A stretch of 64,000 nucleotides of DNA from a virus. Positions 7,371-23,730 of this stretch are shown here, piece by piece. The stretch covers positions 1-64,000 of the IMG/VR virus record IMGVR_UViG_3300041809_000801; one strand, 5' to 3'. A model generated the notes under the pieces. That model made no database searches. It saw nothing but the letters and a program-made list of their open reading frames with translations, and was not told the DNA's origin. The translations under genes and the position numbers were made by a program. Position 1 is the stretch's first letter. Each line of letters starts with the position of its first letter.

Positions 7371-7400
7371 AAGAACTCCGGGAGTTACCCCGGAGTTCTT
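7371..7400 (-). terminator. Probable intrinsic terminator
   Basis: 12-bp perfect stem AAGAACTCCGGG/CCCGGAGTTCTT just 3' of the last Y-like RNA copy. Confidence 0.6.
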
Positions 7401-7411
7401 CGATGCTATTG

Positions 7412-7477
7412 GCGGAGAGTAGGAGACCTTTGTTTGATTAAGAGTCAAGTTTTAGAAGGAAGGGTTCCAATAGCCGC
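7412..7477 (-). ncRNA. Y-RNA-like stem-loop, copy E
   Basis: GCGG-CTATTGGAACCCTTCCTTCT...AGGTCTCCTACTCT-CCGC; same motif as the copies at 10380-10774. Confidence 0.7.
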
Positions 7478-8068
7478 GCAATGTCTAATAATACCACGAT
7501 TCAATCGAGATTGTCGTATTTTTTCTTTAGTTTCCTCAGATAGAACCTTGCCCTTGTTAGCGACACGTATCTTCTCTCTGGTATCTTGGGTACGTTCACC
7601 CAATACCCGACCTTCCAGAGCCTTCCGTAACTTGAGTTTTGTTTCTTCTGAACAAGGGTGAGAGCGTGGGTGCGCCACCAGACCTGCTTTGACCGCTTCA
7701 ATTCGCTTAGGGTTTAACCTGTTGTCAGCAGCCAGCCCGTTGGCATTTATGTAGTTAAACCCCGGTGATAGCCCCGCCTGATTGATGTAGTCGAAACCCC
7801 CGCTACCCCCTTGTCTCAGGTTATAGCATAGTGGGTCTTTTCGATACGACTCAATCAGTTCAAACTCTTTGGCGAAAGCTTCTTCGGCGTTGTCAAAGAT
7901 AAAGCACACATTCTTGATGAATGACTGCTCACCATACTTTTGAATCGCCGACCGGAGCACTTTACCCGACCCAAGGTACCCATCATACGGATTCCTAGTC
8001 TTGTGGACGCCGAGGTAATACTTGCCGTTTACAAGATTTTGTGTGCGGTATACCGTGTAAAATATCAT
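7445..8068 (-). CDS. GIY-YIG homing endonuclease (Seg-like)
   Basis: YTVYRTQNLVNGKYYLGVHKT...YLGSG, YNL..GG, SEETK repeats; ATG 8068. Confidence 0.88.
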   Translation of the reverse strand: MIFYTVYRTQNLVNGKYYLGVHKTRNPYDGYLGSGKVLRSAIQKYGEQSFIKNVCFIFDNAEEAFAKEFELIESYRKDPLCYNLRQGGSGGFDYINQAGLSPGFNYINANGLAADNRLNPKRIEAVKAGLVAHPRSHPCSEETKLKLRKALEGRVLGERTQDTREKIRVANKGKVLSEETKEKIRQSRLNRGIIRHCAAIGTLPSKT

Positions 8069-8134
8069 GACTATCACCCTTAGTAGGAAGGGCTTCAATA
8101 GCCCCTCTAATTAGAGGGTGATAGTCAAGAAAAC

Positions 8135-10357
8135 TTAGACTGCTACCGCCTTCTTCTTCACAACCGGAGCCTTTACAGCGTCAGCCATGAATTCCGAAGC
8201 GATACGGTCGAGTTCGAAGGGCGTTCCAGCTTCCACCGAGAACACCACATCCGCTTCCTCTGCCTCATCGACCAACGTGCCACGTGCTTCCACATGGAGG
8301 TTGAGCAAATCGTAGAGGTTAGGCTTCTTGATGTTAGTGAACGCCTTGCCCAAAAGTTCAATGGTTCCACGAGTGGACGCCACGTTGTTTCCACCACGCC
8401 AGCTATAACGGTAGTTGTTCCCAGTGGTCATAGTCGCATCAACCCAAATGACCTTGCGGTCAACGAGGTCGATAATCATCGGGACAACAGAGGTTGCCTC
8501 AGTCGTCACATCAGCCCGGTCAACTACAGTACGCGGGTCATAGACCTCGCCAGACTGCGGCTTCTCGCGAAGCATAAATCCAGCGAAGCACTCCGGCACA
8601 TCGGCGAACTTCTGTCCGGTGAAGCTGTGAACAGTCTGAACGATGTAACGCACACCCGCCTTTAGGGCTTTCGCAATGTCCACGTCGATGAACTCACTCG
8701 CACCCTTCGGTGCCGAAGTGATGTCGCCGCTGTGAACTGCGAACTGCTCACGCAAGTTGTAGTATGTCACCGCGCCCTTGCTCACCCAGTTCTCGTCATA
8801 GGCACACGCCGAGAGGTCAAGGTCAACACGATTCGAGTGATACCCGTAGAAGTTTTCTTCAAGGTCGCTGTCGGCCTTGCCAGACTTGCCTTCCTTCCAC
8901 CAGATGAAGAAGCGGACGGTGCCCTTCTCATCGCCGAACGGCAGCTTGGAGCCACGCACTAAGGTGCGGAACGTCTTGCTGGCCGAACGCTGCGAGAACG
9001 GCAGGAGACAATCCTGCAACGCAGAGTCGATGTACACGTTGCCCAACTCAGGCAGGATAGAGAACCGCTCGACCAAAACTGCCTTGATACCTGTAGCAAT
9101 CTTGCGAGTGACCGCCTTGGACATATTCTCCAAGGTCTTCTCCAGAGACATGACCTTCGCCACGTTCCCCTTCGGGAACACAACGCGCATGTCAGTCTCA
9201 TCGCGGTGCTCGAAGTGAGCCAGTACCTGCAACAGCACCGGGGTCGAAACATCGTGAGCAACAGCCAAGAAAGCATCCACAACACGGCCCTGCTTCGCCG
9301 GGGTGCCAGCCTGACGCAGAACGTGATCGAGACGACGAGCGAACTCGCCGGGGCGCTGAGTCAACAACGTGGTTGCCTGAAGAGCGTTGCCACTACGAAC
9401 AGCAGCTTCAACATGGGTGCGGAAAGTTTCCACAGTCTCATTGTTGCGAAGCGTAGTGAAAGCCTTCAGCGTAGTCGGGAAACGCTTCGCGAATTCGCCG
9501 GGATGCAGACGCTCACCGAGACGAACCCAACGAGCCGGGAAGCGGAGCATATCCTCTTCCTTGCTTCCTGCGGCTTCCAACAAACCAAGCAAGAACTTAC
9601 GCTCCGAACGCTTGAAGCTGCGGAACTTGGAGTCATCCTTGAGCGACACATCGCCGTTGCTCATCGCGGTCGCCAGACGCAGAACGTCCGTGGCCGTCTT
9701 GAAGTACGGGGCAATGTCAATCGCCGTGCCCTGAAGCAAGGCCCCAACATACGCGAGATTTTCCTTATTTGGAATCGCGGGAAAGATGTCGAGCAACTTT
9801 CCATACCCGTTCTTAATCAGGGTGGACAACTCTTCCTTGTCCGACGCTGACAGAGACGTATTGGACGTAGCCAGACGAGTGGTCAATGTGTCGATGTCTT
9901 CCGTGGTAGCAAGGTCAACAACACGCAACTCCACCTTTTCATCTAGCGGCTCACGCTTGTCCTTGACATACTTCGGCAACCAGATGTTGTCCGGGTTGCC
10001 CGTGATGTCTACGACCAAAAAAGAGAAGTAGTGGCAGATGGCGTTGATGTACAATTCCGCGTCCGAAGCCTCGATAACCTGCTTCGGGAAGTTCGGGTAC
10101 ATCGGGCGGTAGTTCTTCACGCCCTTAGCTTCCTTGAGTGCGGTAAGAATTTCATCGAAGAGAAGCACAGCGGACGCTTCGCCCAAACGCAGGAAGCCCT
10201 TGATGGCGTCGGGGGACAGAGTATAGCCAAGTGCTTGAATGTTCAGATTGAACGTGGCAACAAGCGCCGGGTATGGCGTGGGGGCAGACACACGCTTCCC
10301 TGAAACTGGAAGCAAAATCTTGTTGAGGCGGCGAAGAACAATCGACTGTACATTCAT
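8135..10357 (-). CDS. ROT/TROVE-like repeat protein with C-terminal TerD domain
   Basis: 740 aa; helical part with TATDVLRLA, RLGERLHPGE, RPGEFARRLD; TerD-like C-terminus RVDLDLSA...HSGDITSAP.GASEFIDVD; strong SD AAGGAG. Confidence 0.75.
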   Translation of the reverse strand: MNVQSIVLRRLNKILLPVSGKRVSAPTPYPALVATFNLNIQALGYTLSPDAIKGFLRLGEASAVLLFDEILTALKEAKGVKNYRPMYPNFPKQVIEASDAELYINAICHYFSFLVVDITGNPDNIWLPKYVKDKREPLDEKVELRVVDLATTEDIDTLTTRLATSNTSLSASDKEELSTLIKNGYGKLLDIFPAIPNKENLAYVGALLQGTAIDIAPYFKTATDVLRLATAMSNGDVSLKDDSKFRSFKRSERKFLLGLLEAAGSKEEDMLRFPARWVRLGERLHPGEFAKRFPTTLKAFTTLRNNETVETFRTHVEAAVRSGNALQATTLLTQRPGEFARRLDHVLRQAGTPAKQGRVVDAFLAVAHDVSTPVLLQVLAHFEHRDETDMRVVFPKGNVAKVMSLEKTLENMSKAVTRKIATGIKAVLVERFSILPELGNVYIDSALQDCLLPFSQRSASKTFRTLVRGSKLPFGDEKGTVRFFIWWKEGKSGKADSDLEENFYGYHSNRVDLDLSACAYDENWVSKGAVTYYNLREQFAVHSGDITSAPKGASEFIDVDIAKALKAGVRYIVQTVHSFTGQKFADVPECFAGFMLREKPQSGEVYDPRTVVDRADVTTEATSVVPMIIDLVDRKVIWVDATMTTGNNYRYSWRGGNNVASTRGTIELLGKAFTNIKKPNLYDLLNLHVEARGTLVDEAEEADVVFSVEAGTPFELDRIASEFMADAVKAPVVKKKAVAV

Positions 10358-10379
10358 GGCGTTACTCCTTTCAAGAGTA

Positions 10380-10462
10380 AGGTTGGAGAGTAGGAGACCT
10401 AATTCGTAGCGATGCCCTTTCGGGCGTCAATGAGTAGAAGGAAGGGCTCCAATAGCCAACCT
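10380..10462 (-). ncRNA. Y-RNA-like stem-loop, copy D
   Basis: AGGTTGG/CCAACCT closing stem, conserved core, internal GCCC-GAAA-GGGC hairpin. Confidence 0.75.
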
Positions 10463-10466
10463 AGAA

Positions 10467-10594
10467 GACTGGAAAGCATCAAACCTTTTTGAGACCGCTG
10501 TCCTACCATTGGACGACAACCCCGAAGGGAGGCCGGATTCGAACCGGATTCGCGGTTTTGGTCATTTGAGAAGGAAGGGTTGAAATAGCCAGCC
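10467..10594 (-). ncRNA. Y-RNA-like RNA with circularly permuted tRNA domain (YrlA-type architecture), copy C
   Basis: Conserved core enclosing T arm CCGG-TTCGAAT-CCGG, UUCG-capped acceptor-like stem, then D arm GTCC-AATGGTA-GGAC. Confidence 0.8.
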
Positions 10595-10603
10595 TGTGTT
10601 ATA

Positions 10604-10684
10604 GAGCCGGAGAGTAGGAGACCTAACACCATCGAACCCGCCGAGGCGGGAATTGTTAGAAGGAAGGGCTCCAATAGCCGGTTC
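10604..10684 (-). ncRNA. Y-RNA-like stem-loop, copy B
   Basis: GAACCGG/CCGGCTC closing stem, conserved core, internal CCCGCC/GGCGGG hairpin. Confidence 0.75.
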
Positions 10685-10703
10685 AACTTGTGTTGCAAAA
10701 CTC

Positions 10704-10774
10704 GTGAGTCGGAGAGCAGCAGACCTAGCTCTGTCCATTAGATGTAGAAGGAAGGGCTGCAATAGCCGACTCAC
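10704..10774 (-). ncRNA. Y-RNA-like stem-loop, copy A
   Basis: GTGAGTCGG/CCGACTCAC closing stem; GCAG/CTGC compensatory change in core; 5' end about 6 nt from an extended -10 TGG-TACTAT (10780-10788). Confidence 0.75.
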
Positions 10775-11058: not shown

Positions 11059-11132
11059 TGGCTCCGTCGCAGGGATTCGAACCCCGATAAACAGATTCAA
11101 AGTCTGCTGTCCTACCGTTGAACGACGACGGA
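11059..11132 (-). tRNA. tRNA-Gln(UUG)
   Basis: Cloverleaf, loop CT-TTG-AA, U1-A72, G73, encoded CCA. Confidence 0.92.
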
Positions 11133-11133
11133 A

Positions 11134-11355
11134 TTAAATATTCCCAGCCATGAGTTGGTCTTCAGCGTCAGCCAGCTTCCTTACTTCTCGACACAGAAAC
11201 GACACATACTCGCGACAACTTTCAAATGACAGCGACTTTGCGATTTCTGCTCTTCCTGCCGAGGTCTTCAATGCCTGACCCACAGCCTCAAGACCGAGAC
11301 GATGAAACCGCTCCTGCCCCAACTCATTCAGCAATTCAGAAAGTTCCGACATCAA
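11134..11355 (-). CDS. Hypothetical protein
   Basis: 73 aa; coupled to the upstream small ORF. Confidence 0.5.
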   Translation of the reverse strand: MMSELSELLNELGQERFHRLGLEAVGQALKTSAGRAEIAKSLSFESCREYVSFLCREVRKLADAEDQLMAGNI

Positions 11356-11531
11356 CCCTCTACGATGGCGACCGACGCCTTCTTCCGGGCCTTCCCAATT
11401 TCAACCGTCACAGCCTTGCCCGTGTTCTCAGCCTCAAGGATAGCGTTGTACAATTTTGAACCGAAGGATAGGTCACCGTTCAATTCCAATATTGCACTTC
11501 TCGGTATCTCGACTTGAATTGTCTTCGCCAT
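11352..11531 (-). CDS. Hypothetical protein (59 aa, not in ORF track)
   Basis: MAKTIQVEIPRSAILELNGDLSFGSKLY...; fills the gap between tRNA genes. Confidence 0.5.
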   Translation of the reverse strand: MAKTIQVEIPRSAILELNGDLSFGSKLYNAILEAENTGKAVTVEIGKARKKASVAIVEG

Positions 11532-11551
11532 CTAATCTAATACTCCAAACT

Positions 11552-11640
11552 TGGCTAGGGAGGCCGGATTCGAACCGACAAGGAGCAATTACGCTCAACA
11601 GCTTCAAAGACTGCGGGGCCTACCAATGCCCGACTCCCCA
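11552..11640 (-). tRNA. tRNA-Gln(UUG) with long variable arm
   Basis: 89 nt; TGGGGAG/CTCCCTA-G-CCA, loop CT-TTG-AA, variable stem GAGCG-TAAT-TGCTC. Confidence 0.85.
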
Positions 11641-12148: not shown

Positions 12149-12745
12149 TCACTCCCAGTACGGTCCGATGTTTCGCCCGTACACTTCACTCAGTTTGGCA
12201 AAGTACGCTTTGGTCTTTATCTTACACATCCAATCGTCGCCCTTGCAGACAACCCCCTCCCACACTGGGTAGCGTCCTTCACGAATATCCTCGATGAACT
12301 GCTTGTTTAGATTACCCTCATACACTACTTCAGCAGAGTATGGTAGGTCTCCAAACACTTTAACGAACTGCCGGGGCTTCATCAACCCCCGCTTGAACAG
12401 GTACACATCAAAGAGACGAAGTTCTTTTGGCTCTCCTGCTATGTGCGACCCGGTGAAACTGCTCGGCCCGAAAAACTCAGTGAACGCCGTGATTCGCTGC
12501 GGCTGTCGCTCTACACTTTTCACGCGGCGGACAATTTCGTCGCCCATCTTCATGAAGAGTGGAATCGCCTCTCCGAAAATCTCGTCCGACTGGTCAAACA
12601 ACTGGGTACGAGTGCCGAACTTGAACCAGCCCTTCTTCGGGTTCCATTCCCATCGAAGGTTCGAACCGTCGTACTTATAGAAGGCGATGCACGGCTGACC
12701 AAACGGTGCCTTGGAGCTATTCTCGATGCTTGGGTACTGTTCCAT
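12149..12745 (-). CDS. Minimal ATP-dependent RNA ligase-like nucleotidyltransferase
   Basis: Motif I KYDGSN, III EFFG, IIIa FDV, IV EGVV, V KIK; about 198 aa. Confidence 0.75.
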   Translation of the reverse strand: MEQYPSIENSSKAPFGQPCIAFYKYDGSNLRWEWNPKKGWFKFGTRTQLFDQSDEIFGEAIPLFMKMGDEIVRRVKSVERQPQRITAFTEFFGPSSFTGSHIAGEPKELRLFDVYLFKRGLMKPRQFVKVFGDLPYSAEVVYEGNLNKQFIEDIREGRYPVWEGVVCKGDDWMCKIKTKAYFAKLSEVYGRNIGPYWE

Positions 12746-13191: not shown

Positions 13192-13267
13192 TGGAGCCGA
13201 CGACGGGAATCGGACCCGTGACCTCTTCATTACCAATGAAGTGCTCTACCAACTGAGCTACGTCGGC
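13192..13267 (-). tRNA. tRNA-Thr(GGU)
   Basis: Cloverleaf, loop TT-GGT-AA, T-loop variant TCCGATT, CCA. Confidence 0.92.
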
Positions 13268-13272
13268 TTTTT

Positions 13273-13473
13273 TTACAAAATACGAAAAGAACAAGAGGAA
13301 ACTTCATCATAGCCATCATCGTAATTCGTTTTGAAAACGTTCCAAACGCATCCATCAGAAGACTTAGCCTTGAAACCCGGAGCTATAACTGTTTGAGGAA
13401 GGGACAACATACCAGTAGGATGCTGACTCTTCAAAATGGAAACCACTATGGCTTTGTAATCCTCTGCTTTCAT
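13273..13473 (-). CDS. Hypothetical protein
   Basis: 66 aa, SD AAGGA. Confidence 0.5.
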   Translation of the reverse strand: MKAEDYKAIVVSILKSQHPTGMLSLPQTVIAPGFKAKSSDGCVWNVFKTNYDDGYDEVSSCSFRIL

Positions 13474-13486
13474 TTTTCCTTTCGAG

Positions 13487-13963
13487 CTACGGTAGCTTAA
13501 GGTGGGACTTAATTACGTGGATACAAAAGTCCGCACCCATCCAATCCCACTTGTCATTCGTCTCGTCGTTGTCCTGAAGGTCGCGAAAAATCTGCTCCAA
13601 CTTCTTAACAGCGTCTTCGACTGTCATGTGCTCCTCAACTGGAGGCACCCTGCAATACTGTCCGCCATGCGGAAAAGCGCAAGGCTGAGTTGCTGCCAAA
13701 TCTTCGGCGGTTGCCTGAGCCGCCCACTCATCAAACTCGCAAGCCAAACAAACCTTGCGACGGTCGGCCATTTGCTGCGCCCATGTTACGTAGTTCATTG
13801 AGAGGCACTCCCAACCAACATAGCTGGAATCCTCCCCGAAATCTTTTTCCTTCCTCGCACACTCAGTGCAGAAGGGGTGAGTACCGGCGAACTGCGTGTG
13901 ACGAATCCACGTGGCTTGCTTGCCACAACCGTTAATGCACGTTTCAACAGCAACAGTTGCCAT
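13487..13963 (-). CDS. Hypothetical Zn-finger-like protein
   Basis: 158 aa, CxxxC/CxxC pairs, SD AAGGTG. Confidence 0.55.
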   Translation of the reverse strand: MATVAVETCINGCGKQATWIRHTQFAGTHPFCTECARKEKDFGEDSSYVGWECLSMNYVTWAQQMADRRKVCLACEFDEWAAQATAEDLAATQPCAFPHGGQYCRVPPVEEHMTVEDAVKKLEQIFRDLQDNDETNDKWDWMGADFCIHVIKSHLKLP

Positions 13964-13981
13964 GAAATCACCTTCAAACTT

Positions 13982-14055
13982 TGGAGCCGATAACAGGAAT
14001 CAAACCTGTGTCTACTGCGTACCAAGCAGTTGCACTGCCACTATGCTATACCGGC
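13982..14055 (-). tRNA. tRNA-Thr(GGU), second divergent copy
   Basis: Loop TT-GGT-AC, T-loop TTTGATT, CCA. Confidence 0.85.
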
Positions 14056-14259
14056 TTACTTACAACACAATCCATTTGTATGTGCTCGAATCACTTCTTC
14101 GACCGTGCCCTGTTTCACAACCCCGTCATCAGTCCACGTCATCGCACCATCGTTCACAGTTGCAAAATGCTCCGGTCCGTGATCTTCATGCCCATCACAT
14201 TGAGTGCCCTGATACTCCGACTGGCAAAGTGCCATCCCAAACTCATCTTCTCTTTTCAC
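14056..14259 (-). CDS. Hypothetical protein
   Basis: 67 aa with SD GAGGAG upstream. Confidence 0.45.
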   Translation of the reverse strand: MKREDEFGMALCQSEYQGTQCDGHEDHGPEHFATVNDGAMTWTDDGVVKQGTVEEVIRAHTNGLCCK

Positions 14260-14402
14260 AAATGCTCCTCACACCACCAGCGGAAACGGTCGATGGGATA
14301 CGTCACTGGTTCCCACGCCGACTTAGGTAGAACATACCATAATGACTGGGCAAACCGATAGGGTACTCACCATCGCGTTCAATGTCATCTAATACCCAAC
14401 CT

Positions 14403-14478
14403 TGGAGCCGAGTAGGAGAATTGAACTCCTGACCTTCTCGTTACAAGTGAGACGCTCTACCAACTGAGCTAACCCGGC
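14403..14478 (-). tRNA. tRNA-Thr(UGU)
   Basis: Cloverleaf, loop CT-TGT-AA, CCA. Confidence 0.92.
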
Positions 14479-14484
14479 CAATCT

Positions 14485-14567
14485 TGGAGCCACGGGAGGG
14501 ACTCGAACCCCCGATGTTTGTATGACGGTTTACGATACCGTTGCAGTCGCCGCTGAGCCACCGTGGC
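14485..14567 (-). tRNA. tRNA-Thr(CGU), atypical (long variable loop, weak D stem)
   Basis: 83 nt; loop AT-CGT-AA; variable region CATACAAACATC; GCC/GGC-U-CCA acceptor. Confidence 0.8.
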
Positions 14568-14580
14568 AAAATCAAATTGT

Positions 14581-14663
14581 TGGAGCCGGTGAAGGGAATC
14601 GAACCCCCGGTGTTTGTATGGCAGTTTACAAAACTGCTGCTGTCGCCACTGAGCCACACCGGC
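14581..14663 (-). tRNA. tRNA-Thr(UGU), atypical (long variable loop, weak D stem)
   Basis: 83 nt; loop TT-TGT-AA; variable region CATACAAACACC. Confidence 0.8.
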
Positions 14664-14855: not shown

Positions 14856-14932
14856 TGGTGGGCGAAGGTGGGCTCGAACCACCGACCTCAGTCTTATCAG
14901 GACTGCGCTCTAACCAACTGAGCTATTCGCCC
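14856..14932 (-). tRNA. tRNA-Ile(GAU)
   Basis: Canonical cloverleaf, loop CT-GAT-AA, A73, CCA. Confidence 0.95.
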
Positions 14933-14933
14933 A

Positions 14934-15329
14934 TTACAACTCGAAATCTTTTGCCAAAGTCACTCTCTTGCTCTGATGGTTCTTTGAAGCTTCGAATCGC
15001 AAACTTATCGACCGTCGTTTTCCAAACACCACCATTGGCACGAGGTAGCATTTATCCAACTCAGTACAATAAGCAGCTATGTGGTCTACCTGCCCATGAT
15101 ACCAATTTGTGCCTTTAGTAGAGACACTTTTTGCATCAACCACTACAGCACCGCTAATGATACGCCCGGTCTTTACTTGGACTCTTTCAAAAGTCCCCTC
15201 GTTATCAATGACCAAATCGTATCGCTCATTATCTCCCCATGGGGTTAAAACCACATACCCCCGCTTCAACAGAGCAGCCAATACAGCCGCTTCACTCACA
15301 TTACCTACACGCTTTGTATCTTGAGGCAT
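14934..15329 (-). CDS. PD-(D/E)XK homing endonuclease (I-Ssp6803I-like)
   Basis: TKRVGNVSEAAVLAALLKRGY.V..PWGDNERYDLV...RVQVKTGR; ATG 15329. Confidence 0.85.
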   Translation of the reverse strand: MPQDTKRVGNVSEAAVLAALLKRGYVVLTPWGDNERYDLVIDNEGTFERVQVKTGRIISGAVVVDAKSVSTKGTNWYHGQVDHIAAYCTELDKCYLVPMVVFGKRRSISLRFEASKNHQSKRVTLAKDFEL

Positions 15330-15349
15330 GTGGTCTAATACCCTAAACT

Positions 15350-15423
15350 TGGTGCGCCTTATAGGAGTCGAACCCATGTCTTCCGCTAATCGGGCGGAGG
15401 CTCTACCGTTAAGCAAAAGGCGC
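15350..15423 (-). tRNA. Atypical tRNA with GAU anticodon (C33, U37)
   Basis: Intact stems and CCA; anticodon loop CC-GAT-TA. Confidence 0.7.
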
Positions 15424-15658
15424 AAAAACTTTTCGACACTTGCACTCGGCGACGTTATCTCCGCCGAACCCGAAACAATCGGGGTTAGTTGCTATCAAAC
15501 TCTCGGCTTCCACTGGAGGAGGCGTCTCTTTCAACTTCTCCTGCAAATCTTCAAGCGCCGAGATTGCTTTCTTGTACGTGGATATTAAAGCACCCGCGTA
15601 CCCAAATCCGTCTCCGCGTACTGCATTTTTCTCAGCCCGGAGTTGACTGATAACTGCA

Positions 15659-16045
15659 TCAATGTCCATCGCTGTCCAACGCCTTCCGGGCTGCGGTGTC
15701 AAACTTCTCCGCATTCCAAAACCCTGCAAAAGAACCGCTGGAAGTGATGAGCAATTCACCTTTCGAAACTTTCAAACTGATGCCGAGGCTATCAACTCTT
15801 TGCTCCTCCCAATCTCGCGTCGAAGGCACATGTCCACAATCTTTCATGATGTGAACGATTGCTGCCTTGCGACCGAGAACCCCAAACAATTTTTCTGCCT
15901 CATCAACCCCACGTGAGTGGTGTCGCCAAAATCTGTGCAACGGACCAAACCGTTTGAATCCCGCATCCAACCAATGATTCACTTCTTCGCATCGGTCGCC
16001 GAGGATGCGTTCACAATCTCGACAATGCTCATCGAATGACGCCAA
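15659..16045 (-). CDS. His-rich hypothetical protein (DUF6915-like)
   Basis: HWLD...HRFWRHHSRG..EAEKLFG...HIMKDCGHVPS..DW; TTG 16045 after GGGGGAG. Confidence 0.55.
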   Translation of the reverse strand: MASFDEHCRDCERILGDRCEEVNHWLDAGFKRFGPLHRFWRHHSRGVDEAEKLFGVLGRKAAIVHIMKDCGHVPSTRDWEEQRVDSLGISLKVSKGELLITSSGSFAGFWNAEKFDTAARKALDSDGH

Positions 16046-16054
16046 AACTCCCCC

Positions 16055-16086
16055 TAAAAACACTAAAGCCGCCTGTTCAGGCGGCT
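16055..16086 (-). terminator. Attenuator terminator hairpin
   Basis: AGCCGCCT-GAAC-AGGCGGCT followed by TTAGTGTTTTT. Confidence 0.8.
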
Positions 16087-16110
16087 CATCGCATCTCAGA
16101 TTGAATCTTT

Positions 16111-16191
16111 TCAGATTCGTACGAAAACACGAGGCCGCAGAACGCTGGTTTGCGTTGTAGTGGTAATTCGTGTTTGGTTTGTGAGACGCAT
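16111..16191 (-). CDS. Thr-rich leader peptide MRLTNQTRITTTTQTSVLRPRVFVRI
   Basis: SD AAGGA 7 nt upstream; 7 Thr codons including tandem ACC ACT ACA ACG; followed by antiterminator/terminator. Confidence 0.8.
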   Translation of the reverse strand: MRLTNQTRITTTTQTSVLRPRVFVRI

Positions 16192-16230
16192 TGATGATTC
16201 CTTCTTGGTACCTTTCAGAAACTTAATGCT

Positions 16231-16406
16231 TGGTCGGTGGGGACAGACGTTAGCCTACCCCCACCGATGGAGCCGGTCGAATAGTTTCCCACTCTCCCGG
16301 CTTGGCCCCCGACCCAAGGTTGCCCTCAGGCCGGAGTTGGCACCCGGCTTAAGGTTTCCCTCGAACCGGGTATGGTGGGTGACTCAAGGTTTCCCTCTAA
16401 TCACCC
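16231..16406 (-). ncRNA. Tandem array of five NCCA-ended tRNA-minihelix-like hairpins
   Basis: Units 16373-16406, 16338-16371, 16303-16336, 16268-16301 (34 nt each) and 16231-16266 (36 nt), each separated by 1 nt. Confidence 0.85.
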
Positions 16407-16414: not shown

Positions 16415-16443
16415 ATAATACCAGCGAAAGTTGGTTTTTGCAA
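16415..16443 (-). promoter_or_regulatory. sigma70-type promoter
   Basis: TTGCAA-17 bp-TATTAT; predicted start 2-3 nt before the first minihelix. Confidence 0.8.
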
Positions 16444-17820: not shown

Positions 17821-17898
17821 TGGTGCGTCCTGAGGGAGTCGAACCCCCGACCTTCTCTGCGTCAAAGAGTTGCTCTAAACCCACTGAGCTAAGGACGC
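17821..17898 (-). tRNA. tRNA-Val(GAC)
   Basis: Cloverleaf, loop TT-GAC-GC, A73, CCA. Confidence 0.85.
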
Positions 17899-17916: not shown

Positions 17917-17994
17917 TGGTGCCCCCGGTGGGACTCGAACCCACGACTCGCAGAAATTTAGAGTTTCCGGTTCTACCAACTGAACTACAGGGGC
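17917..17994 (-). tRNA. Amber-suppressor tRNA (CUA)
   Basis: GGAAA-CT-CTA-AA-TTTCT anticodon arm, canonical D/T arms, 7-nt variable loop, A73, CCA. Confidence 0.88.
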
Positions 17995-18013
17995 GCTGGA
18001 AACCTTCATTCTT

Positions 18014-20302: not shown

Positions 20303-20369
20303 CAGGCTACGAACAACACAATGAACGCAATGACTATCAATACGCTCATGCCTTCACCCCCTGAACAGC
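20303..20369. repeat. 67-bp perfect direct repeat, copy 1
   Basis: Identical to 21961-22027. Confidence 0.95.
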
Positions 20370-20834
20370 TTCAAGCGTGGCAACAAACTCCTCGCGGGCC
20401 TGCTGCTTGATGGCGGGACGCATCATTTCGATGGTCTCCATAACCTTCGCCTGAGTAAGCCGGTCGGATTCGGCTTGCTTGGCAGCGAAGAAATCATTGA
20501 CAGACTTCTCCCACCGAGTAACCTCGGCTTTGAAGTACGTCTGTACAGCGTCCTTGACGAGGCTTTCGATGATGGCTTTAGCCTCGGGTGGGAACTTGTA
20601 CGTGCTGGTGATGCTCTTGTTGAATTCGGCGATGGACTTATTGATAGTAGCTTGCATCTCCGACTCAAACTTGTCGAGTGAGATTTTCTGTGCCTTGCGC
20701 TTGAGTTCCTCGGCAATCTTTTCGATAGCCATGGTCTGAAGCTTAATACGAACTTCCGGCTCTTCGTCAAGAATCTTACGAAGCGTTGCGGTGCGAACGA
20801 GAAGTTCAACGGGTGCGATTGTTGTCGTAGACAT
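20346..20834 (-). CDS. Hypothetical coiled-coil protein
   Basis: 162 aa, helical, SD present. Confidence 0.65.
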   Translation of the reverse strand: MSTTTIAPVELLVRTATLRKILDEEPEVRIKLQTMAIEKIAEELKRKAQKISLDKFESEMQATINKSIAEFNKSITSTYKFPPEAKAIIESLVKDAVQTYFKAEVTRWEKSVNDFFAAKQAESDRLTQAKVMETIEMMRPAIKQQAREEFVATLEAVQGVKA

Positions 20835-20835
20835 A

Positions 20836-21354
20836 TTACTCTCCCTTCCGTGAGAACGTCGTGATAACCATGGACTGAGCCGGTGAGGTCTTCTGCTCGT
20901 CCGCCTTCTGGCCCTTCATCGTGAACTTGAGGTTGCGGCCATCGTACTTGTTCTTGACACCGCTGAACGTGTGTGGCGATGGTGACTGAGCATCGAGCCA
21001 CACATCCCAGTTAACGACCACTGGAAGATTTTCATCCATGGCCTTGTAAATGGTGTACTCCCAATCGGGGTACTTTTCCTTCCAGTACACCATGTCCTTG
21101 TTCGCCCACGTCCAAGCGTCGAGATTGTAGTAGGTGCTCGACCAGTAGAGAAACGTGCGGTTGGGCTCAACACCGAGGCTTAACGAATTCTCAACCGGAC
21201 CGTAAAGCTGGTCGTCGTTCGGCTTCTTGATGAGGATGATGTATCCGGCCTTAGCAACCTCCATGAGGCGGTTGTTCCGTGCCACGTCCTCGTCAGTAGC
21301 GACAAGGGGCTCCTGCGGCTCGATGAGACGCACAACTTCATTAGGCTGCTGCAT
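20836..21354 (-). CDS. Hypothetical protein
   Basis: 172 aa, SD GGAGG. Confidence 0.65.
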   Translation of the reverse strand: MQQPNEVVRLIEPQEPLVATDEDVARNNRLMEVAKAGYIILIKKPNDDQLYGPVENSLSLGVEPNRTFLYWSSTYYNLDAWTWANKDMVYWKEKYPDWEYTIYKAMDENLPVVVNWDVWLDAQSPSPHTFSGVKNKYDGRNLKFTMKGQKADEQKTSPAQSMVITTFSRKGE

Positions 21355-21685
21355 AGCAAACCTCCGGCGACCAGAGGCGATAGGTGCCCATGGCTTTGCG
21401 CTGCTTTTTGTTTTGGATTGGGTAGGTGGAGACCGCCGTCAAGCCGAGGTCATTGTCAGGCTCATAGAAAGCCTCGTAGTCAATGCCATAGCGTTGGAGC
21501 CGTTCAATGACGGCCTCAAGTTCTGACTTGTCGGGAACTCCGATAAGAACGACCGATGGAGTCTCGGTGCGTTCGGAAAGGCGGGATGCCATCTCAAAGG
21601 TGGCGTGGTTGGACTGCACGATTTGTTGAGCGAGACTGATGTCAGTCCGCACGAAAACGAAAGTGTGGTTGCTTACCTAGTGCAT
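21341..21685 (-). CDS. Pth2-like peptidyl-tRNA hydrolase with in-frame TAG at codon 3
   Basis: ATG CAC TAG then VSNHTFVFVRTDISLAQQIVQSNHA...VVLIGV...FYEPD...GLTAV..YP; SD AGGAG before ATG 21685. Confidence 0.7.
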
Positions 21686-21741
21686 TTTCCTTCTCCTCAT
21701 TACTGGATTTGGTAGTTCTCGGATTTCTCCGACTTGCGCTT

Positions 21742-21771
21742 ACTCTACACGGAAGAGTCGCCGGTTGTCAA
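21742..21771 (-). promoter_or_regulatory. sigma70-type promoter for the pth2-like cassette
   Basis: TTGACA-18 bp-TAGAGT, just after a GGGGCGG/CCGCCCC terminator-like hairpin (21784-21807). Confidence 0.65.
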
Positions 21772-21824
21772 GAAAATTTTTCAGGGGCGGTCTGTCAACC
21801 CGCCCCCAGTTTTGGATGATGAAG

Positions 21825-22007
21825 CTACGCCGCATCTCGTTTCCGGGGATGTCCAACGTTGTTCACGCAGACCTCCACTTCCCCTGTCGGGTCTTCTTCC
21901 AACAGCTTAATGAGTTCCTTGATACCACGATTGTACCCAAGCCTGTCTGCCATAAACAAACAGGCTACGAACAACACAATGAACGCAATGACTATCAATA
22001 CGCTCAT
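21825..22007 (-). CDS. Small membrane protein
   Basis: MSVLIVIAFIVLFVACLFMADRLGY...; its 5' end lies in the direct repeat. Confidence 0.5.
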   Translation of the reverse strand: MSVLIVIAFIVLFVACLFMADRLGYNRGIKELIKLLEEDPTGEVEVCVNNVGHPRKRDAA

Positions 22008-22027
22008 GCCTTCACCCCCTGAACAGC
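21961..22027. repeat. 67-bp perfect direct repeat, copy 2
   Basis: Identical to 20303-20369. Confidence 0.95.
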
Positions 22028-22354
22028 CCATCGTGCGGCTGGTCTTCCGCGTACAACCATATAATACACGGGGGTGGCAAGTTTTGGCTACATTTTTTTC
22101 AACAAATCGTTTTTTCTTTTGAGAACCTCAGAAGCGTAAAGCGCGGCCCACTGCAAGTCACGCTCTGTGAGTCCAACTCCTTCAACATCCACGTGGATAC
22201 TGCCGAGAGGCATATCCTGTCGCAAATGAATGATGTGCTCGACGCCTTCTTTGGTGTTGCCATCCAGCCAGACCTGAGTAACACCCGTCCAGCCGTTGCC
22301 ATCCATGATACATCTCAGGGTCAAAACAAGTACAACGCATTCTACCCTCAATTC

Positions 22355-22484
22355 GGTACGCTGGGCAGGGCCTCTCCTGCGACCTCCCCATTACCAATGG
22401 GTGCTCTTGGCTTTTACCTCTCCCTCCGGAGTCGTGGGTACCCCCCTCGTCCGTCCCTTGAGGCGTAATTCTGAGCTACCAGCG
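22355..22484 (-). ncRNA. tRNA-Thr(GGU)-like RNA with large D-loop insertion
   Basis: CGCTGG/CCAGCG, TA, GCTC...GAGC, CCCA-TTGGTAA-TGGG, AGGTC, GCAGG/CCTGC. Confidence 0.6.
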
Positions 22485-22487
22485 AGA

Positions 22488-22886
22488 TTAAACTTTGTTG
22501 AACTCCCCTCCATCATACATCACGGCGAAAGCCAAAGCACCACGAAGTTCAGTATACTCTTCGTCAGTACCAAGGTTGAACTCTCGCATCACTTTATTTT
22601 TGACGTAGGCTTCCACCTTGTTGTATTTGAGCCCGTCGATGAAAGCCTTCACAGATTTCAAGAAGGGATACCGCTTGCGTTTTTCTACAATGCAATCAAC
22701 GATGGCTTCGGCGTCCCTTTGATAGCATCCGCATACCTCGCAGGGTGCGGGGTCCCCCGGTCCGCTGAAACGAAAGACTTGAACCTCAGAGCCACAGTGA
22801 CATTTTACTGTAGCGTAGCCCTCTTGCAGAGTGTCGTACTCCGCCCTTGACATCGTGACTTCGGAACCGTCCTCAGACCACTTCAT
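22488..22886 (-). CDS. Hypothetical Zn-ribbon protein
   Basis: 132 aa; CHCG and CEVCG; SD AAGGAG. Confidence 0.6.
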   Translation of the reverse strand: MKWSEDGSEVTMSRAEYDTLQEGYATVKCHCGSEVQVFRFSGPGDPAPCEVCGCYQRDAEAIVDCIVEKRKRYPFLKSVKAFIDGLKYNKVEAYVKNKVMREFNLGTDEEYTELRGALAFAVMYDGGEFNKV

Positions 22887-23034
22887 CTTTTGACTCCTTG
22901 GTCTCGGTCAAATCTACGCGAAAATATGTGGCCTCATCCTCCGTCCAATGCACAGACATGGACGGGTAGTGAGAATTCTCAAGTCGCGTTCTTGTTCCAA
23001 CTCTACGAGACATATTGACGCCCAAAAATCGGTA

Positions 23035-23326
23035 GGGGTCGCTTTTGGCGACCCCATCCTAGTGAACTATTCTTTCACAGAGTCAGCCCACGAACTCCGA
23101 GTAGCTGGTTATTAAGCAGCCGCTGCAAGTGCCATTGGTTCGGCAGATGTTATTTTTCCCACCATATAACGGATAGCGAGAGAACGAGTTGTTGACGGCT
23201 TCCTTCCAAAACATCTGTCGAAATCTTGGCGGGCCCATAGATTTTATTGGTGGACCCGGTGGGAATCAAACCCACGTCCAAATGCTGGTTAGAACGTCTT
23301 CAGCCTCTTGCGAAGCACACAACCAT
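23035..23326 (-). ncRNA. ssrA: Circularly permuted (two-piece) tmRNA
   Basis: Acceptor piece ends GTGGG-TTTGATT-CCCAC-CGGGTCC-ACCA at 23248; 11-nt spacer; coding piece starts GGGCCCG at 23236 (G3.U70); tag AEPMALAAAA** at 23144-23109; outer ends approximate. Confidence 0.88.
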
Positions 23327-23332
23327 ATACCA

Positions 23333-23361
23333 ATAATACCCGTAGTCGGGAAATTCTGCAA
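23333..23361 (-). promoter_or_regulatory. sigma70-type promoter for tmRNA
   Basis: TTGCAG-17 bp-TATTAT. Confidence 0.7.
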
Positions 23362-23364
23362 GAG

Positions 23365-23730
23365 CTACGTGCGTGCAATATTCTGAGGAAAGTACGTTTT
23401 CATCAATTGCGTTCCAGTCGTCATCGCCGGGTCGTAGGGGTAATCAATCCAAAGTCCAGTCCATTCGCCTTCCTTATTCTCATGAAGGCACCAGCGGCAA
23501 CCCAACACTGGGGAATCTGGTCTGCCGTTACACCAGACGTGGTGATACGGGCGGGGCGGGGGAGTGAGTGCTTCTCCGGTGAAGGCAACTCTTTGACAGG
23601 CTACGAGGATTCCACACTCGCACACCATCGACACTGACTTAAGCTTCTCCTGTTCCAACTCTGGACGCAGGATTCGCTCATGACATTTTGGGCACAACCC
23701 AATCCAGACGATTCGTGTCCTTCTATCCAT
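23365..23730 (-). CDS. Hypothetical Cys-rich protein
   Basis: 121 aa, several CxxC motifs. Confidence 0.5.
   Translation of the reverse strand: MDRRTRIVWIGLCPKCHERILRPELEQEKLKSVSMVCECGILVACQRVAFTGEALTPPPRPYHHVWCNGRPDSPVLGCRWCLHENKEGEWTGLWIDYPYDPAMTTGTQLMKTYFPQNIART

What the first reader, a model, noticed from the sequence alone, without database searches (positions are those of the whole stretch)
7400..23400. Whole island reads as a layered tRNA/translation counter-defence system
Seen: co-located and co-oriented minihelix array, Thr attenuator, variant tRNAs, RNA ligase, ROT-TerD protein with Y-like RNAs, suppressor tRNA, amber-gated Pth2 and tmRNA. Established: Ro/Y RNA systems associate with RNA repair ligases; T4 Rnl1/Pnk repairs PrrC-cut tRNA. 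Inference: decoy, sense, replace, repair and rescue functions against host defences that destroy tRNA. No end-healing Pnk is recognisable; the His-rich ORF 15659-16045, first gene after the attenuator, is a candidate.
Basis: inference. Interest (0 to 1): 0.75.

Follow-up and report, generated by a model that had tools for sequence, protein, structure and literature searches.

The report
Jumbo-phage tRNA and RNA-maintenance island
A 16-kb stretch of an uncultured giant phage really does pack an attenuator-controlled tRNA operon, tRNA-top hairpins, a minimal RNA ligase, a Ro-like protein with its own small RNAs, a stop-codon-gated hydrolase and a tmRNA side by side, but these are separable modules that travel independently in other phages, so a single layered anti-defence system is not shown.

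Summary
They are: five NCCA-tailed minihelices; a Thr/Gln/Ile leader peptide with a terminator ahead of Ile/Thr/Gln tRNAs; long-variable-arm tRNAs; a 198-aa RNA ligase; a Ro-fold/TerD protein flanked by five covarying Y-like RNAs; tRNA-CUA; a Pth2-like gene with UAG as codon 3; and a permuted tmRNA.

The firm links are pairwise:
- Ro-TerD with Y-like RNA: 72 of 75 sources, always on the gene's strand.
- Leader codons with the downstream tRNAs: 10 relatives.
- The UAG-gated gene with tRNA-CUA: 9 of 10 relatives.

The island as a whole is not a unit. In complete 456-463-kb relatives the parts lie 100-200 kb apart. Most Ro-TerD phages lack this ligase, the Pth2-like gene and DUF6915.

Thr is the commonest residue of the window's proteins (9.5%, and 11-16% in the giant proteins). 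That gives a simple supply reason for five tRNA-Thr genes. No end-healing enzyme is recognisable. DUF6915 has no P-loop, so it is not a Pnk.

This scan has already reported each module on other DNA. The phage RNA-repair and translation theme is in print (PMC7824862).

The parts
23021..23340 (-). circularly permuted (two-piece) tmRNA, tag peptide AEPMALAAAA
   Evidence: ARAGORN. Rfam RF04321 scores 59.2 bits against a 47-bit cut-off. Permuted tmRNAs lie 2-4 kb upstream of the Pth2-like gene in L082-L086.
22355..22484 (-). tRNA-Thr(GGU)-like element with about 60 nt inserted in the D loop and a non-canonical T loop
Evidence: It shares a 24-nt anticodon-arm repeat with tRNA-Thr 13192 (family D9). 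ARAGORN and Rfam do not call it.
21341..21685 (-). Pth2-like gene starting SD-ATG-CAC-TAG; the UAG (21679-21677) is codon 3
   Evidence: All 10 viral relatives keep a TAG 1-8 codons after the ATG, followed in frame by the conserved YxYVFVRxD. Several relatives have no canonical start after the TAG. In the ESM Atlas, 30 of 30 neighbour clusters include PF01981 members. A weak PDB profile hit is to a peptidyl-tRNA hydrolase.
17917..17994 (-). tRNA with anticodon CUA (amber suppressor), encoded CCA
   Evidence: A tRNA-CUA lies 0-3 kb downstream of the UAG-gated gene in 9 of 10 relatives.
17821..17898 (-). tRNA-Val(GAC)
16415..16443 (-). promoter-like site TTGCAA-17-TATTAT with an extended TG
   Evidence: Consensus scan only. 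A similar sequence heads the array in L002.
16231..16406 (-). five tandem 34-36-nt minihelices (13-14 bp stem, tetraloop, discriminator, CCA) with 1-nt spacers
   Evidence: The acceptor ends resemble those of the island's Ile, Gln and Thr tRNAs. An RNA-library contig covers 15881-16336 at depth 12.
16111..16191 (-). 26-codon leader ORF MRLTNQTRITTTTQTSVLRPRVFVRI containing all four Thr codons, CAA and ATT
   Evidence: Leaders rich in T/Q/I occur in 10 relatives ahead of Ile/Thr/Gln tRNAs.
16066..16087 (-). intrinsic terminator of the attenuator (9-bp GC stem followed by a U run)
   Evidence: z -5.45. In 6-7 of 9 leaders the 5' arm pairs with a segment inside the leader ORF when the 3' arm is left out.
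15659..16045 (-). DUF6915 protein, first gene after the attenuator
   Evidence: Pfam PF21866. Invariant residues are H7, D27, H37, R38, H42, H65 and D69. There is no P-loop. It holds the same position after the terminator in L002, L007, L008, L011, L081 and L089.
14856..15423 (-). two tRNA-Ile(GAU) genes (15350-15423, 14856-14932) with a PD-(D/E)XK endonuclease gene between them
   Evidence: PF11645 E 8.9e-36.
13192..14663 (-). five tRNA-Thr genes (UGU, CGU, UGU, GGU, GGU); two are 83 nt with a 12-nt variable region
   Evidence: Long Thr tRNAs are also present in L004, L006, L007, L011, L024 and L083.
12149..12745 (-). 198-aa stand-alone ATP-dependent RNA-ligase-like nucleotidyltransferase
   Evidence: phrog_548. 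Motifs I, III, IV and V are present. The AF2 model's best Foldseek hits are TbREL1, T4 Rnl1, NgrRnl and T4 Rnl2. About 1000 homologues exist, all close to 199 aa.
11059..11640 (-). two tRNA-Gln(UUG) genes; the one at 11552-11640 has a long variable arm (89 nt)
10379..10773 (-). four tandem Y-like RNAs; copy C (10465-10596) carries a T-arm-before-D-arm tRNA-like module
   Evidence: A weak YrlA hit of 21.8 bits. RNA-library contigs cover 10378-10597 at depth 11-35.
8135..10357 (-). 740-aa Ro60-fold helical ring plus a C-terminal TerD domain
   Evidence: NCBIfam NF041916 at E 2e-131.
7445..8103 (-). 5' half of a Y-like RNA (8078-8103) followed by a GIY-YIG/NUMOD3 homing-endonuclease gene (ATG at 8066)
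   Evidence: The same arrangement occurs in L001 and L002.
7365..7481 (-). fifth complete Y-like RNA (7408-7481) and a terminator-like hairpin (7365-7400)

Best explanation
The stretch is the tRNA/RNA-maintenance region of a fragment (89 kb, about 29% complete) of an uncultured wetland jumbo phage. It is a mosaic of at least four self-contained modules that share an orientation, not one system.

1. A demand-controlled tRNA operon. The order is promoter, five CCA-tailed minihelices, a leader peptide spelled in Thr/Gln/Ile codons, a terminator, DUF6915, then the Ile/Thr/Gln tRNAs. A ribosome that stalls in the leader for lack of these charged tRNAs leaves a G-rich segment free to pair with the terminator's 5' arm, and transcription runs on into the tRNA genes. 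A ribosome that reaches the leader's stop codon masks that segment, and transcription ends.
2. A stand-alone nick-sealing RNA ligase.
3. A separate transcription unit that encodes a Ro60-fold/TerD protein and five Y-like RNAs. These probably form an RNP that binds or scaffolds damaged or misfolded RNA.
4. A tRNA-CUA paired with a Pth2-like hydrolase that is made full-length only when its UAG codon 3 is read through, with a permuted tmRNA upstream.

Together these modules keep translation running late in infection, when a very Thr-rich virion proteome must be made. Whether the stress they answer is host immunity, the phage's own host shut-off or plain demand is not resolved.

Shown here: the anatomy, the conservation, the folds and the pairwise linkages. 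Inferred: every activity.
For: - Anatomy and conservation.
- Pairwise linkages: R1 hits in 72 of 75 sources, all on the protein gene's strand and next to the gene. Leader peptides rich in T/Q/I lie ahead of Ile/Thr/Gln tRNAs in 10 relatives, including L083, where DUF6915 is elsewhere. A TAG near codon 3 occurs in 11 of 11 sequences, with tRNA-CUA nearby in 9 of 10.
- Antiterminator pairing in 6-7 of 9 leaders.
- Separate transcription signals: a terminator-like site at 10836-10810 ahead of the Y array and a hairpin at 7365-7400 after it.
- Demand: Thr is 9.5% of 14,161 residues, and 11-16% in the giant proteins at 38211-56409.
- Modularity: the parts are dispersed in G001 and G002 and only partly present elsewhere.
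- Expression hint: contigs from four metatranscriptome libraries cover the Y-like copies C and D, the minihelix/leader region and 21764-22046 at higher contig depth than the neighbouring genes.
Against: - No activity has been measured.
- The contigs from RNA libraries cannot prove transcription or RNA ends (tool caveat).
- In the window itself the antiterminator is weak, with 3 of 6 arm bases paired.
- Pfam does not recognise TROVE, TerD, RNA_ligase or PTH2 in the window's proteins. Those assignments rest on predicted folds, motifs and neighbours.
- Ro-TerD sits inside or beside tRNA arrays in 25 of 46 loci, and 16 of 18 complete Ro-TerD phages carry some PF09414 ligase. Some functional tie between modules therefore cannot be excluded.
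Confidence: 0.55

Rival explanations
1. This is the first reader's reading: the island is one layered counter-defence system against host enzymes that destroy or block tRNA. The minihelices act as decoys for toxins that attack the acceptor end. The attenuator senses tRNA loss. The variant tRNAs replace cleaved host tRNAs. The ligase and the Ro-like RNP repair broken tRNAs. Pth2-like and tmRNA rescue stalled ribosomes.
For: - All parts are co-oriented within 16 kb and keep their order in the closest relatives.
- The minihelix acceptor ends resemble those of the Ile, Gln and Thr tRNAs of the same operon.
- The long-variable-arm Thr and Gln tRNAs are conserved.
- A published comparative study proposes this same logic for jumbo phages (PMC7824862).
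- NAMPT and NUDIX NAD-salvage genes lie just downstream. By my own knowledge this pathway is a reported phage counter-defence.
Against: - The components assort independently outside the clade and lie 100-200 kb apart in complete relatives.
- No Pnk, phosphatase or 2H enzyme is recognisable. DUF6915 lacks a P-loop and has no detectable relative of known function.
- The Thr-rich proteome gives a non-defence reason for the tRNA set.
- No tRNA-targeting defence specific for Thr, Ile and Gln was identified.
Confidence: 0.2
2. The neighbourhood has no shared function beyond tRNA supply. The tRNA region of jumbo phages is a permissive hot spot where small accessory genes, homing endonucleases and RNA genes accumulate, and the apparent theme is a by-product of location.
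For: - Two homing-type endonucleases sit inside the island: GIY-YIG at 7445-8066 and PD-(D/E)XK at 14934-15425.
- Many island ORFs have no homologues in relatives.
- The modules are found in other contexts in other phages.
- Fourteen of 46 Ro-TerD loci have no tRNA within 10 kb.
Against: - Nearly every identifiable part acts on tRNA, RNA or the ribosome.
- The tmRNA, UAG-gated gene, tRNA-CUA and Ile/Thr/Gln tRNA order recurs in relatives with only 42-56% protein identity.
- Ro-TerD lies in or beside arrays of 4 or more tRNAs in 25 of 46 loci, always on the same strand.
Confidence: 0.25

Closest known systems
Jumbo-phage RNA-repair and translation-support gene sets (Iyer, Anantharaman, Krishnan, Burroughs, Aravind 2021, PMC7824862; Burroughs and Aravind 2016, cited there but not held in the paper library)
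   Same: [quoted passage not shown] The authors propose these as a response to RNase effectors.
   Different: That work lists protein families per genome. It does not describe the RNA-level devices found here: the leader-peptide attenuator, the CCA minihelices, the UAG gate and the Y-like RNA family. I found no mention of the TerD-fused Ro-like family there.
Ro60/Rsr with Y RNAs (YrlA/YrlB; Salmonella rsr-yrlBA-rtcBA; Thermus phage phiLo Ro60, PMC12135203; Chen et al. 2014, PMC4201824)
   Same: A ring-shaped helical-repeat fold (Z 10.9-12.0 to 1yvp, 9l5y and 2nvo). Adjacent multicopy small RNAs built from a conserved stem and a variable module. One copy has a T-before-D tRNA-like module, as in YrlA.
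   Different: There is no Pfam TROVE hit. A TerD domain takes the place of vWA. The conserved RNA motif is GGCUAUU..CCCUUCCUUCU / AGGU..CUCUCC rather than GNCGAA or GGUCCGA. No RtcB is adjacent.
Leader-peptide transcription attenuators of amino-acid operons (thr leader with Thr and Ile codons; trp, his, ilv)
   Same: A short SD-led ORF with a run of regulatory codons, an intrinsic terminator, and an alternative pairing that uses a segment inside the ORF.
   Different: The genes it controls are the tRNAs that read the leader's codons (plus DUF6915), not biosynthetic enzymes. I found no published case; this scan has reported it on other phage DNA.
T4 Rnl1/Pnk repair of PrrC-cut tRNA-Lys
   Same: A phage-encoded ATP-dependent RNA ligase fold with the KxDG motif.
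   Different: The enzyme is only 198 aa and has no accessory domain. No Pnk or other end-healing enzyme is recognisable in the window. No target nuclease is known.
Stop-codon-recoded phages with suppressor tRNAs (TAG read as Gln, code 15)
   Same: A phage-encoded tRNA-CUA and an in-frame TAG that must be read through.
   Different: TAG is an ordinary stop here: it ends 12 of 46 genes. Only one gene carries the in-frame TAG, always near codon 3. A second candidate, the helicase at 3085-5919, proved to be chance.

Membership tests
Ro60/Rsr (TROVE) - Y RNA ribonucleoprotein | TROVE HEAT-repeat ring recognisable by sequence (Pfam PF05731) | tested here: not met
   No Pfam family was found for P0001 even at E 10.
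Ro60/Rsr (TROVE) - Y RNA ribonucleoprotein | Ro60-like ring fold | tested here: met
   VIA-align scores: 1yvp_A Z 12.0 (319 residues aligned), 9l5y_B Z 11.6, 2nvo_A Z 10.9. The next unrelated helical hit scores 8.1. This is a predicted model with pLDDT 76.5.
Ro60/Rsr (TROVE) - Y RNA ribonucleoprotein | C-terminal vWA domain | tested here: not met
   The C-terminal domain is TerD: 2kxt E 4.5e-5 and 2qz7_B Z 13.6.
Ro60/Rsr (TROVE) - Y RNA ribonucleoprotein | small structured RNAs encoded next to the protein gene | tested here: met
   Model R1 gave 211 hits in 72 of 75 sources, all on the gene's strand and flanking it. Covariation was reached by 0 of 500 shuffles.
Ro60/Rsr (TROVE) - Y RNA ribonucleoprotein | conserved Ro-binding motif GNCGAA / GGUCCGA in the stem | tested here: not met
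   The conserved motif here is GGCUAUU-N4-CCCUUCCUUCU. The known motifs are as quoted in PMC4201824. The Rfam YrlA hit is only 21.8 bits against a 69-bit cut-off.
ATP-dependent RNA ligases (covalent nucleotidyltransferase superfamily) | motif I KxDG with the adenylated lysine, plus motifs III, IV and V | tested here: met
   KYDG, TEFFG, FDV and EGVVCKG..KIK are present and are invariant in alignment A4.
ATP-dependent RNA ligases (covalent nucleotidyltransferase superfamily) | nucleotidyltransferase fold | tested here: met
   Foldseek: 1xdn E 4.5e-7, 2c5u E 2.5e-6, NgrRnl, T4 Rnl2 and Rnl3, all at probability 1.0.
ATP-dependent RNA ligases (covalent nucleotidyltransferase superfamily) | family-specific accessory domain (Rnl1 C-terminal, Rnl2 C-terminal, Rnl5 N-terminal OB) | tested here: not met
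   The protein is 198 aa, and about 1000 homologues are all close to 199 aa. Fused forms outside 111-354 aa were not searched.
Pth2 peptidyl-tRNA hydrolase (PF01981) | match to the family profile | tested here: inconclusive
   There is no Pfam hit. In the ESM Atlas, 30 of 30 nearest clusters have 22-24% of members with PF01981, at scores 0.94-0.95. A PDB profile hit to 24bt_A, a peptidyl-tRNA hydrolase, has E 0.27 and aligns the VRxD..Q..HA block.
Leader-peptide transcription attenuator | SD-led short ORF with a run of regulatory codons | tested here: met
   AAGGA is followed by ATG and 26 codons, of which 7 are Thr, 2 Gln and 2 Ile. Ten relatives keep T/Q/I-rich leaders.
Leader-peptide transcription attenuator | intrinsic terminator directly after the ORF | tested here: met
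   A 9-bp GC stem followed by a U run. The fold z is -5.45. GCCGCC..GGCGGCUUU is conserved.
Leader-peptide transcription attenuator | mutually exclusive antiterminator that uses a segment a translating ribosome would mask | tested here: inconclusive
   With the 3' arm left out, the terminator's 5' arm is paired at 4-6 of 6 bases in 6 of 9 leaders, at 3 of 6 in the window and L002, and at 0 of 6 in L006. This is thermodynamic folding only.
T4-type tRNA repair pathway (Rnl1 + Pnk) | end-healing 5'-kinase / 3'-phosphatase | tested here: not met
   No Pnk, HAD, 2H or HD family was found in any island ORF. DUF6915 has no GxxxxGK[ST] motif.
tmRNA | tRNA-like domain plus tag reading frame, scoring over the curated threshold | tested here: met
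   Rfam RF04321 (tmRNA_permuted) scores 59.2 bits against a 47-bit cut-off. ARAGORN calls a permuted tmRNA with tag AEPMALAAAA.
Stop-codon-recoded (code 15) phage | in-frame TAG in many genes and avoidance of TAG as a stop | tested here: not met
   TAG ends 12 of 46 putative genes. Reading TAG as a residue lengthens no large gene internally.

The most novel reading that the evidence does not exclude
The island is a coordinated sense-and-respond circuit against tRNA-directed immunity. Loss of charged Thr/Ile/Gln tRNA opens the attenuator. The co-transcribed CCA minihelices, whose acceptor ends copy those tRNAs, soak up enzymes that attack the acceptor end. DUF6915 is a new metal-dependent end-healing enzyme that works with the minimal ligase. 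The Ro-like/TerD RNP presents broken tRNAs for resealing. The UAG gate times the release of peptidyl-tRNA from stalled ribosomes.
Probability: 0.1. Interest if true: 0.85.

Novelty: new variant of a known kind. Interest (0 to 1): 0.55.

Why it matters
If the modules work as inferred, one 16-kb stretch holds four RNA-level control or maintenance devices. For three I found no account in the paper library, and for the fourth only a one-line mention. They are:
- tRNA genes governed by a leader peptide written in their own codons;
- natural CCA-tailed minihelices;
- a hydrolase gated by a stop codon that the phage's own suppressor tRNA reads;
- a TerD-fused cousin of Ro60 with its own Y-like RNA family.

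Having them side by side in a phage lineage, with metatranscriptome traces, makes this a convenient locus for testing each. It also allows a direct test of whether giant-phage tRNA regions serve supply, repair or counter-defence.

The negative result matters as well. The modules are separable, so claims of a single "system" based on co-location in one genome should be treated with caution.

Tried and rejected
1. Genome-wide TAG recoding was rejected. Reading TAG as Gln does not extend large genes internally, and TAG ends 12 of 46 genes.
2. A second amber-gated gene, the UvrD-like helicase at 3085-5919 with ATG..TAG upstream, was rejected. Relatives start at a plain ATG downstream and have no TAG.
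3. Re-initiation after a two-codon mini-ORF, as an alternative to read-through at the Pth2-like gene, is unlikely. L082, L084, L085 and L087 have no ATG, GTG or TTG between the TAG and the conserved beta-strand.
4. DUF6915 as a Pnk was rejected: it has no P-loop. Its profile finds no solved structure. NCBIfam finds nothing. The 300-aa C-terminal part of the fused forms has no Pfam hit.
5. Sequence searches of the ligase and of Ro-TerD against the PDB gave nothing. Only the fold searches worked.
6. Foldseek alone did not list Ro60 for the 740-aa model. The VIA-align wide search did.
7. Megablast against cultured phages found only a tRNA-Thr match.
8. Burroughs and Aravind 2016 could not be read because it is not held. 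Whether they describe the TerD-fused Ro-like family is therefore unchecked.
9. tRNA parts of the RNA-library contigs are chimeric with other organisms' tRNAs (tables 5c and 7), so they were not used.
10. The PF09414 tally (16 of 18) has no control set of phages without Ro-TerD, so no enrichment is claimed.

Full report
**Context**

The window is the first 64 kb of an 88,934-base IMG/VR virus record that CheckV rates 29% complete. That places it in a jumbo phage of roughly 300 kb. The nearest DNA holders are wetland, peat and soil metagenomes. G+C is about 50%. Almost all genes between 73 and 56,793 lie on the - strand. The standard code applies: reading TAG as a residue does not open large genes, and TAG ends 12 of 46 putative genes.

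**Check of the observation**

ARAGORN and Rfam agree on 11 tRNAs, all on the - strand and all with an encoded CCA:
- Gln-UUG x2, one with a long variable arm.
- Thr x5, two of them with a 12-nt variable region.
- Ile-GAU x2.
- Val-GAC.
- One tRNA with anticodon CUA.

They also agree on a circularly permuted tmRNA at 23021-23340 (RF04321, 59 bits against a 47-bit cut-off).

The five minihelices occupy 16231-16406. Each is a 13-14 bp stem with a tetraloop, a discriminator base and CCA, and the units are separated by one base. Each folds far better than shuffles (z -3.8 to -4.9, 0/200). A scan of the whole window for such hairpins finds these five in a row. The scattered weaker hits elsewhere number no more than shuffled sequence gives. 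Arrays with the same 34-nt period and different sequences stand at the same place in L002 and L004. Their acceptor ends resemble the island's tRNAs:
- GGGUGAU..A73 resembles tRNA-Ile.
- A1:U72 with G73 resembles tRNA-Gln.
- GCCGGGA..U73 resembles tRNA-Thr.

**The attenuator**

After the minihelices comes AAGGA, then a 26-codon ORF, MRLTNQTRITTTTQTSVLRPRVFVRI. It uses all four Thr codons, CAA and ATT. A 9-bp GC hairpin with a U run follows, and the leader region folds with z -5.45.

Relatives carry leaders of different sequence but the same composition:
- MRLTSQTRITTTTQTSGGG..
- MRLSAQTRITTTTTQTS..
- MLMNVTMPHTQTQTQIRAGGG..
- MLSMNKPQTQTTQTIGAGGG..
- MTQSTQTRITTTTTTIIGGGGG..
- MKQTQTTRTTTTQRITITGGG..
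- MNQTSTTRITTTQCTTTG..

Each of these is followed by GCCGCC-loop-GGCGGCUUU, and then by Ile-GAU, Thr-CGU/GGU/UGU and Gln-UUG tRNAs.

I folded the RNA from just 3' of a ribosome stalled at the T/Q/I run up to the terminator loop. In 6 of 9 leaders the terminator's 5' arm then pairs with a G-rich segment that lies inside the leader ORF. Pairing is weaker in the window and L002, and absent in L006. With the 3' arm included, the terminator always wins. This is the anatomy of a thr- or trp-type attenuator, except that it governs the tRNAs that read its own codons. The linkage holds even where DUF6915 has moved elsewhere (L083 in G002).

**DUF6915**

The "His-rich ORF" (15659-16045, TTG start, MASFDEHCRDC..) is Pfam DUF6915. 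It is the first gene after the terminator in the window and in L002, L007, L008, L011, L081 and L089. A search of 1.8 billion representatives found 276 relatives. About ten of these are fused to an unrecognised 300-aa C-terminal part. Invariant residues are H7, D27, H37, R38, H42, H65 and D69, which suggests a metal site. There is no P-loop, and no solved or named relative. It is co-regulated with the tRNAs, but nothing supports a Pnk.

**The ligase**

The ORF 12149-12745 (198 aa) carries ligase motifs I (KYDG), III (TEFFG), IV (FDV) and V (EGVVCKG..KIK). It matches phrog_548, RNA ligase. About 1000 homologues exist, all close to 199 aa, many on 300-460-kb phage contigs, including the Lak phages and XacN1. 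Its AF2 model (pLDDT 87) finds RNA ligases first: TbREL1, T4 Rnl1, NgrRnl, T4 Rnl2 and Rnl3, all at probability 1.0. It is a bare nucleotidyltransferase domain.

**The Ro-like protein and its RNAs**

The 740-aa protein has no Pfam hit. It belongs to phrog_33734 and to a family of more than 3500 proteins in phages and bacteria, some of them named TerD family. It also matches NCBIfam NF041916, whose cellular members add a RING domain.

Its AF2 model (pLDDT 76.5) has a C-terminal TerD fold. Its helical part aligns with Xenopus Ro60, phage phiLo Ro60 and Deinococcus Rsr at Z 12.0, 11.6 and 10.9 over about 310 residues. These scores stand clear of generic HEAT hits, which reach at most Z 8.1.

Five complete copies and one 5' half-copy of an RNA flank the gene. 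Each has an outer stem, a conserved internal loop, an inner stem with a bulge, the constant CCCUUCCUUCU, and a variable apical module. On 11 copies from three phages, 95% of cells pair and 9 of 13 pairs show compensatory changes; 0 of 500 shuffles reach this.

A covariance model built from these copies found 211 matches in 72 of 75 sources that hold a homologue of the protein. Every match is on the gene's strand and next to the gene, in DNA of 21-64% G+C. Copy C carries a T arm, an acceptor-like hairpin and a D arm, in the permuted order of YrlA. Similar tRNA-like inserts occur in L053, L061 and L062. The conserved motif differs from the known Ro-binding motifs, and no Rfam family matches.

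**The UAG gate**

The Pth2-like gene begins AGGAG..ATG CAC TAG. All ten viral relatives (42-77% identity) have a TAG, never TAA or TGA, one to eight codons after an SD-led ATG. In seven of the eleven sequences the head is ATG NNN TAG. The conserved first strand YxYVFVRxD follows in frame. Four relatives have no canonical start codon between the TAG and that strand, so read-through is the likelier route.

Nine of ten relatives have one to three tRNA-CUA genes within 3 kb downstream, directly adjacent in L087 and L090. Five have a permuted tmRNA 2-4 kb upstream.

The Pth2 assignment rests on ESM Atlas neighbours, a weak profile hit to a solved peptidyl-tRNA hydrolase, and the shared VRxD..Q..HA and D.G.T blocks. 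It is likely but not proven.

**Is it one system?**

Order and orientation are kept in the closest relatives, L001-L005. That is expected by descent alone.

In complete huge relatives the parts are present but far apart:
- G001 (456 kb): DUF6915 at 19 kb, Pth2-like at 26 kb, ligase at 134 kb, Ro-TerD at 205 kb.
- G002 (463 kb): DUF6915 at 11 kb, ligase at 76 kb, Pth2-like at 240 kb, Ro-TerD at 448 kb.

Other genomes carry only some of the parts:
- G005 (332 kb, complete) lacks Ro-TerD.
- G032 and G033 have the UAG-gated gene but neither this ligase nor DUF6915.
- Among 18 Ro-TerD phage records at least 90% complete, 3 have the 199-aa ligase, 4 the Pth2-like gene and 3 DUF6915.
- Sixteen of these 18 have some PF09414 ligase, usually far from the Ro-TerD gene, but I have no control set.

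Ro-TerD often sits in or beside tRNA arrays. Thirty-two of 46 loci have at least one tRNA within 10 kb, and 25 have four or more, nearly all on the same strand. The tRNA sets differ between loci, and 14 loci have none.

**A simpler reason for the tRNA set**

Thr is the most frequent residue in 21 window proteins: 9.5% of 14,161 residues. It reaches 12.7%, 15.8%, 13.7% and 10.7% in the four giant proteins at 38211-56409. Five tRNA-Thr genes under a Thr-sensing leader fit a supply-on-demand role for late protein synthesis. This does not exclude defence, but it removes the need for it.

**Expression hints**

Four wetland metatranscriptome libraries from four studies hold parts of the island as exact-match contigs. 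Three contigs end at the same places (10377/8-10597), which are the outer ends of Y-like copies D and C. Their contig depths are 11-35, against about 3 for contigs on neighbouring genes. A contig at depth 12 covers 15881-16336, which spans minihelices 3-5 (the third only in part), the leader and the start of DUF6915. Contigs at depths 6-10 cover 21573-22046. The tool warns that contigs cannot rank expression and that DNA can be present in RNA libraries, so this is a hint only.

**Comparison and novelty**

Large phages combining tRNAs, RNA ligases, ROT/TROVE and PTH2 as an answer to RNA damage is a published comparative-genomic proposal (PMC7824862). The island reading is therefore a variant of a known idea.

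For three of the RNA-level devices I found no account in the paper library, and for the Ro-like protein only one sentence on ROT/TROVE in PMC7824862. This scan has already reported each on other DNA. What this window adds:
- All four devices sit together in one lineage.
- Traces in RNA libraries.
- The assortment data above.
- The Thr-rich proteome.
- A clear negative result for DUF6915 as a Pnk.

**Verdict**

My best reading is a mosaic of autonomous translation- and RNA-maintenance modules (0.55). The rivals are a single layered counter-defence system (0.2) and a neighbourhood with no shared function beyond tRNA supply (0.25).

Noticed in passing
window 73-2476 (-): A nicotinamide phosphoribosyltransferase (PF04095 and PF18127) overlaps a NUDIX-domain protein. 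This is an NAD+ salvage pair. By my own knowledge, such pairs are a reported phage answer to NAD-depleting immunity. It lies just downstream of the island on the same strand.
   Followed up: no
window 7445-8103 (-): A GIY-YIG/NUMOD3 homing-endonuclease gene follows a 5' half-copy of the Y-like RNA, and its 3' end overlaps the next complete copy. L001 and L002 share this arrangement. It looks like an endonuclease insertion into the Y-like RNA array.
   Followed up: partly
window 14934-15425 (-): A PD-(D/E)XK endonuclease gene (PF11645, E 8.9e-36) sits between the two tRNA-Ile genes. Its homologues in L073 and L032 also lie in tRNA arrays.
   Followed up: no
window 20303-20369 and 21961-22027: A 67-nt exact direct repeat (family D8). 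On the - strand it reads as an SD plus the start of a small hydrophobic peptide. RNA-library contigs cover 21764-22046 at raised depth.
   Followed up: no
window 38211-56409 (-): Four giant proteins (1394, 731, 2150 and 1295 aa) contain 10.7-15.8% threonine. They are probably virion or fibre proteins. They were not scanned against any family library.
   Followed up: partly
window 22355-22484 (-): A tRNA-Thr(GGU)-like sequence with about 60 nt inserted in the D loop, a 6-nt T loop and no CCA. It could be a decayed tRNA or a tRNA-like RNA. No program calls it.
   Followed up: partly
window 23985-26299 (-): Weak hits to an ADP-ribosyltransferase of polyvalent proteins (PF18760, E 3.8e-4) and to a methyltransferase domain, next to the tmRNA.
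   Followed up: no
G000 87467-88786 (+), outside the window: A second cluster of four tRNA genes on the other strand of the same record.
   Followed up: no
P0249, P0250, P0261, P0263 and similar (relatives of 15659-16045): About ten representatives of DUF6915 are fused to a conserved C-terminal region of about 300 aa that has no Pfam or NCBIfam hit.
   Followed up: partly
window 8135-10357 (-): The Ro-like/TerD protein matches NCBIfam NF041916, the MXAN_6230/SCO0854 family RING domain-containing protein, at E 2e-131. Cellular relatives therefore add a RING domain.
   Followed up: no
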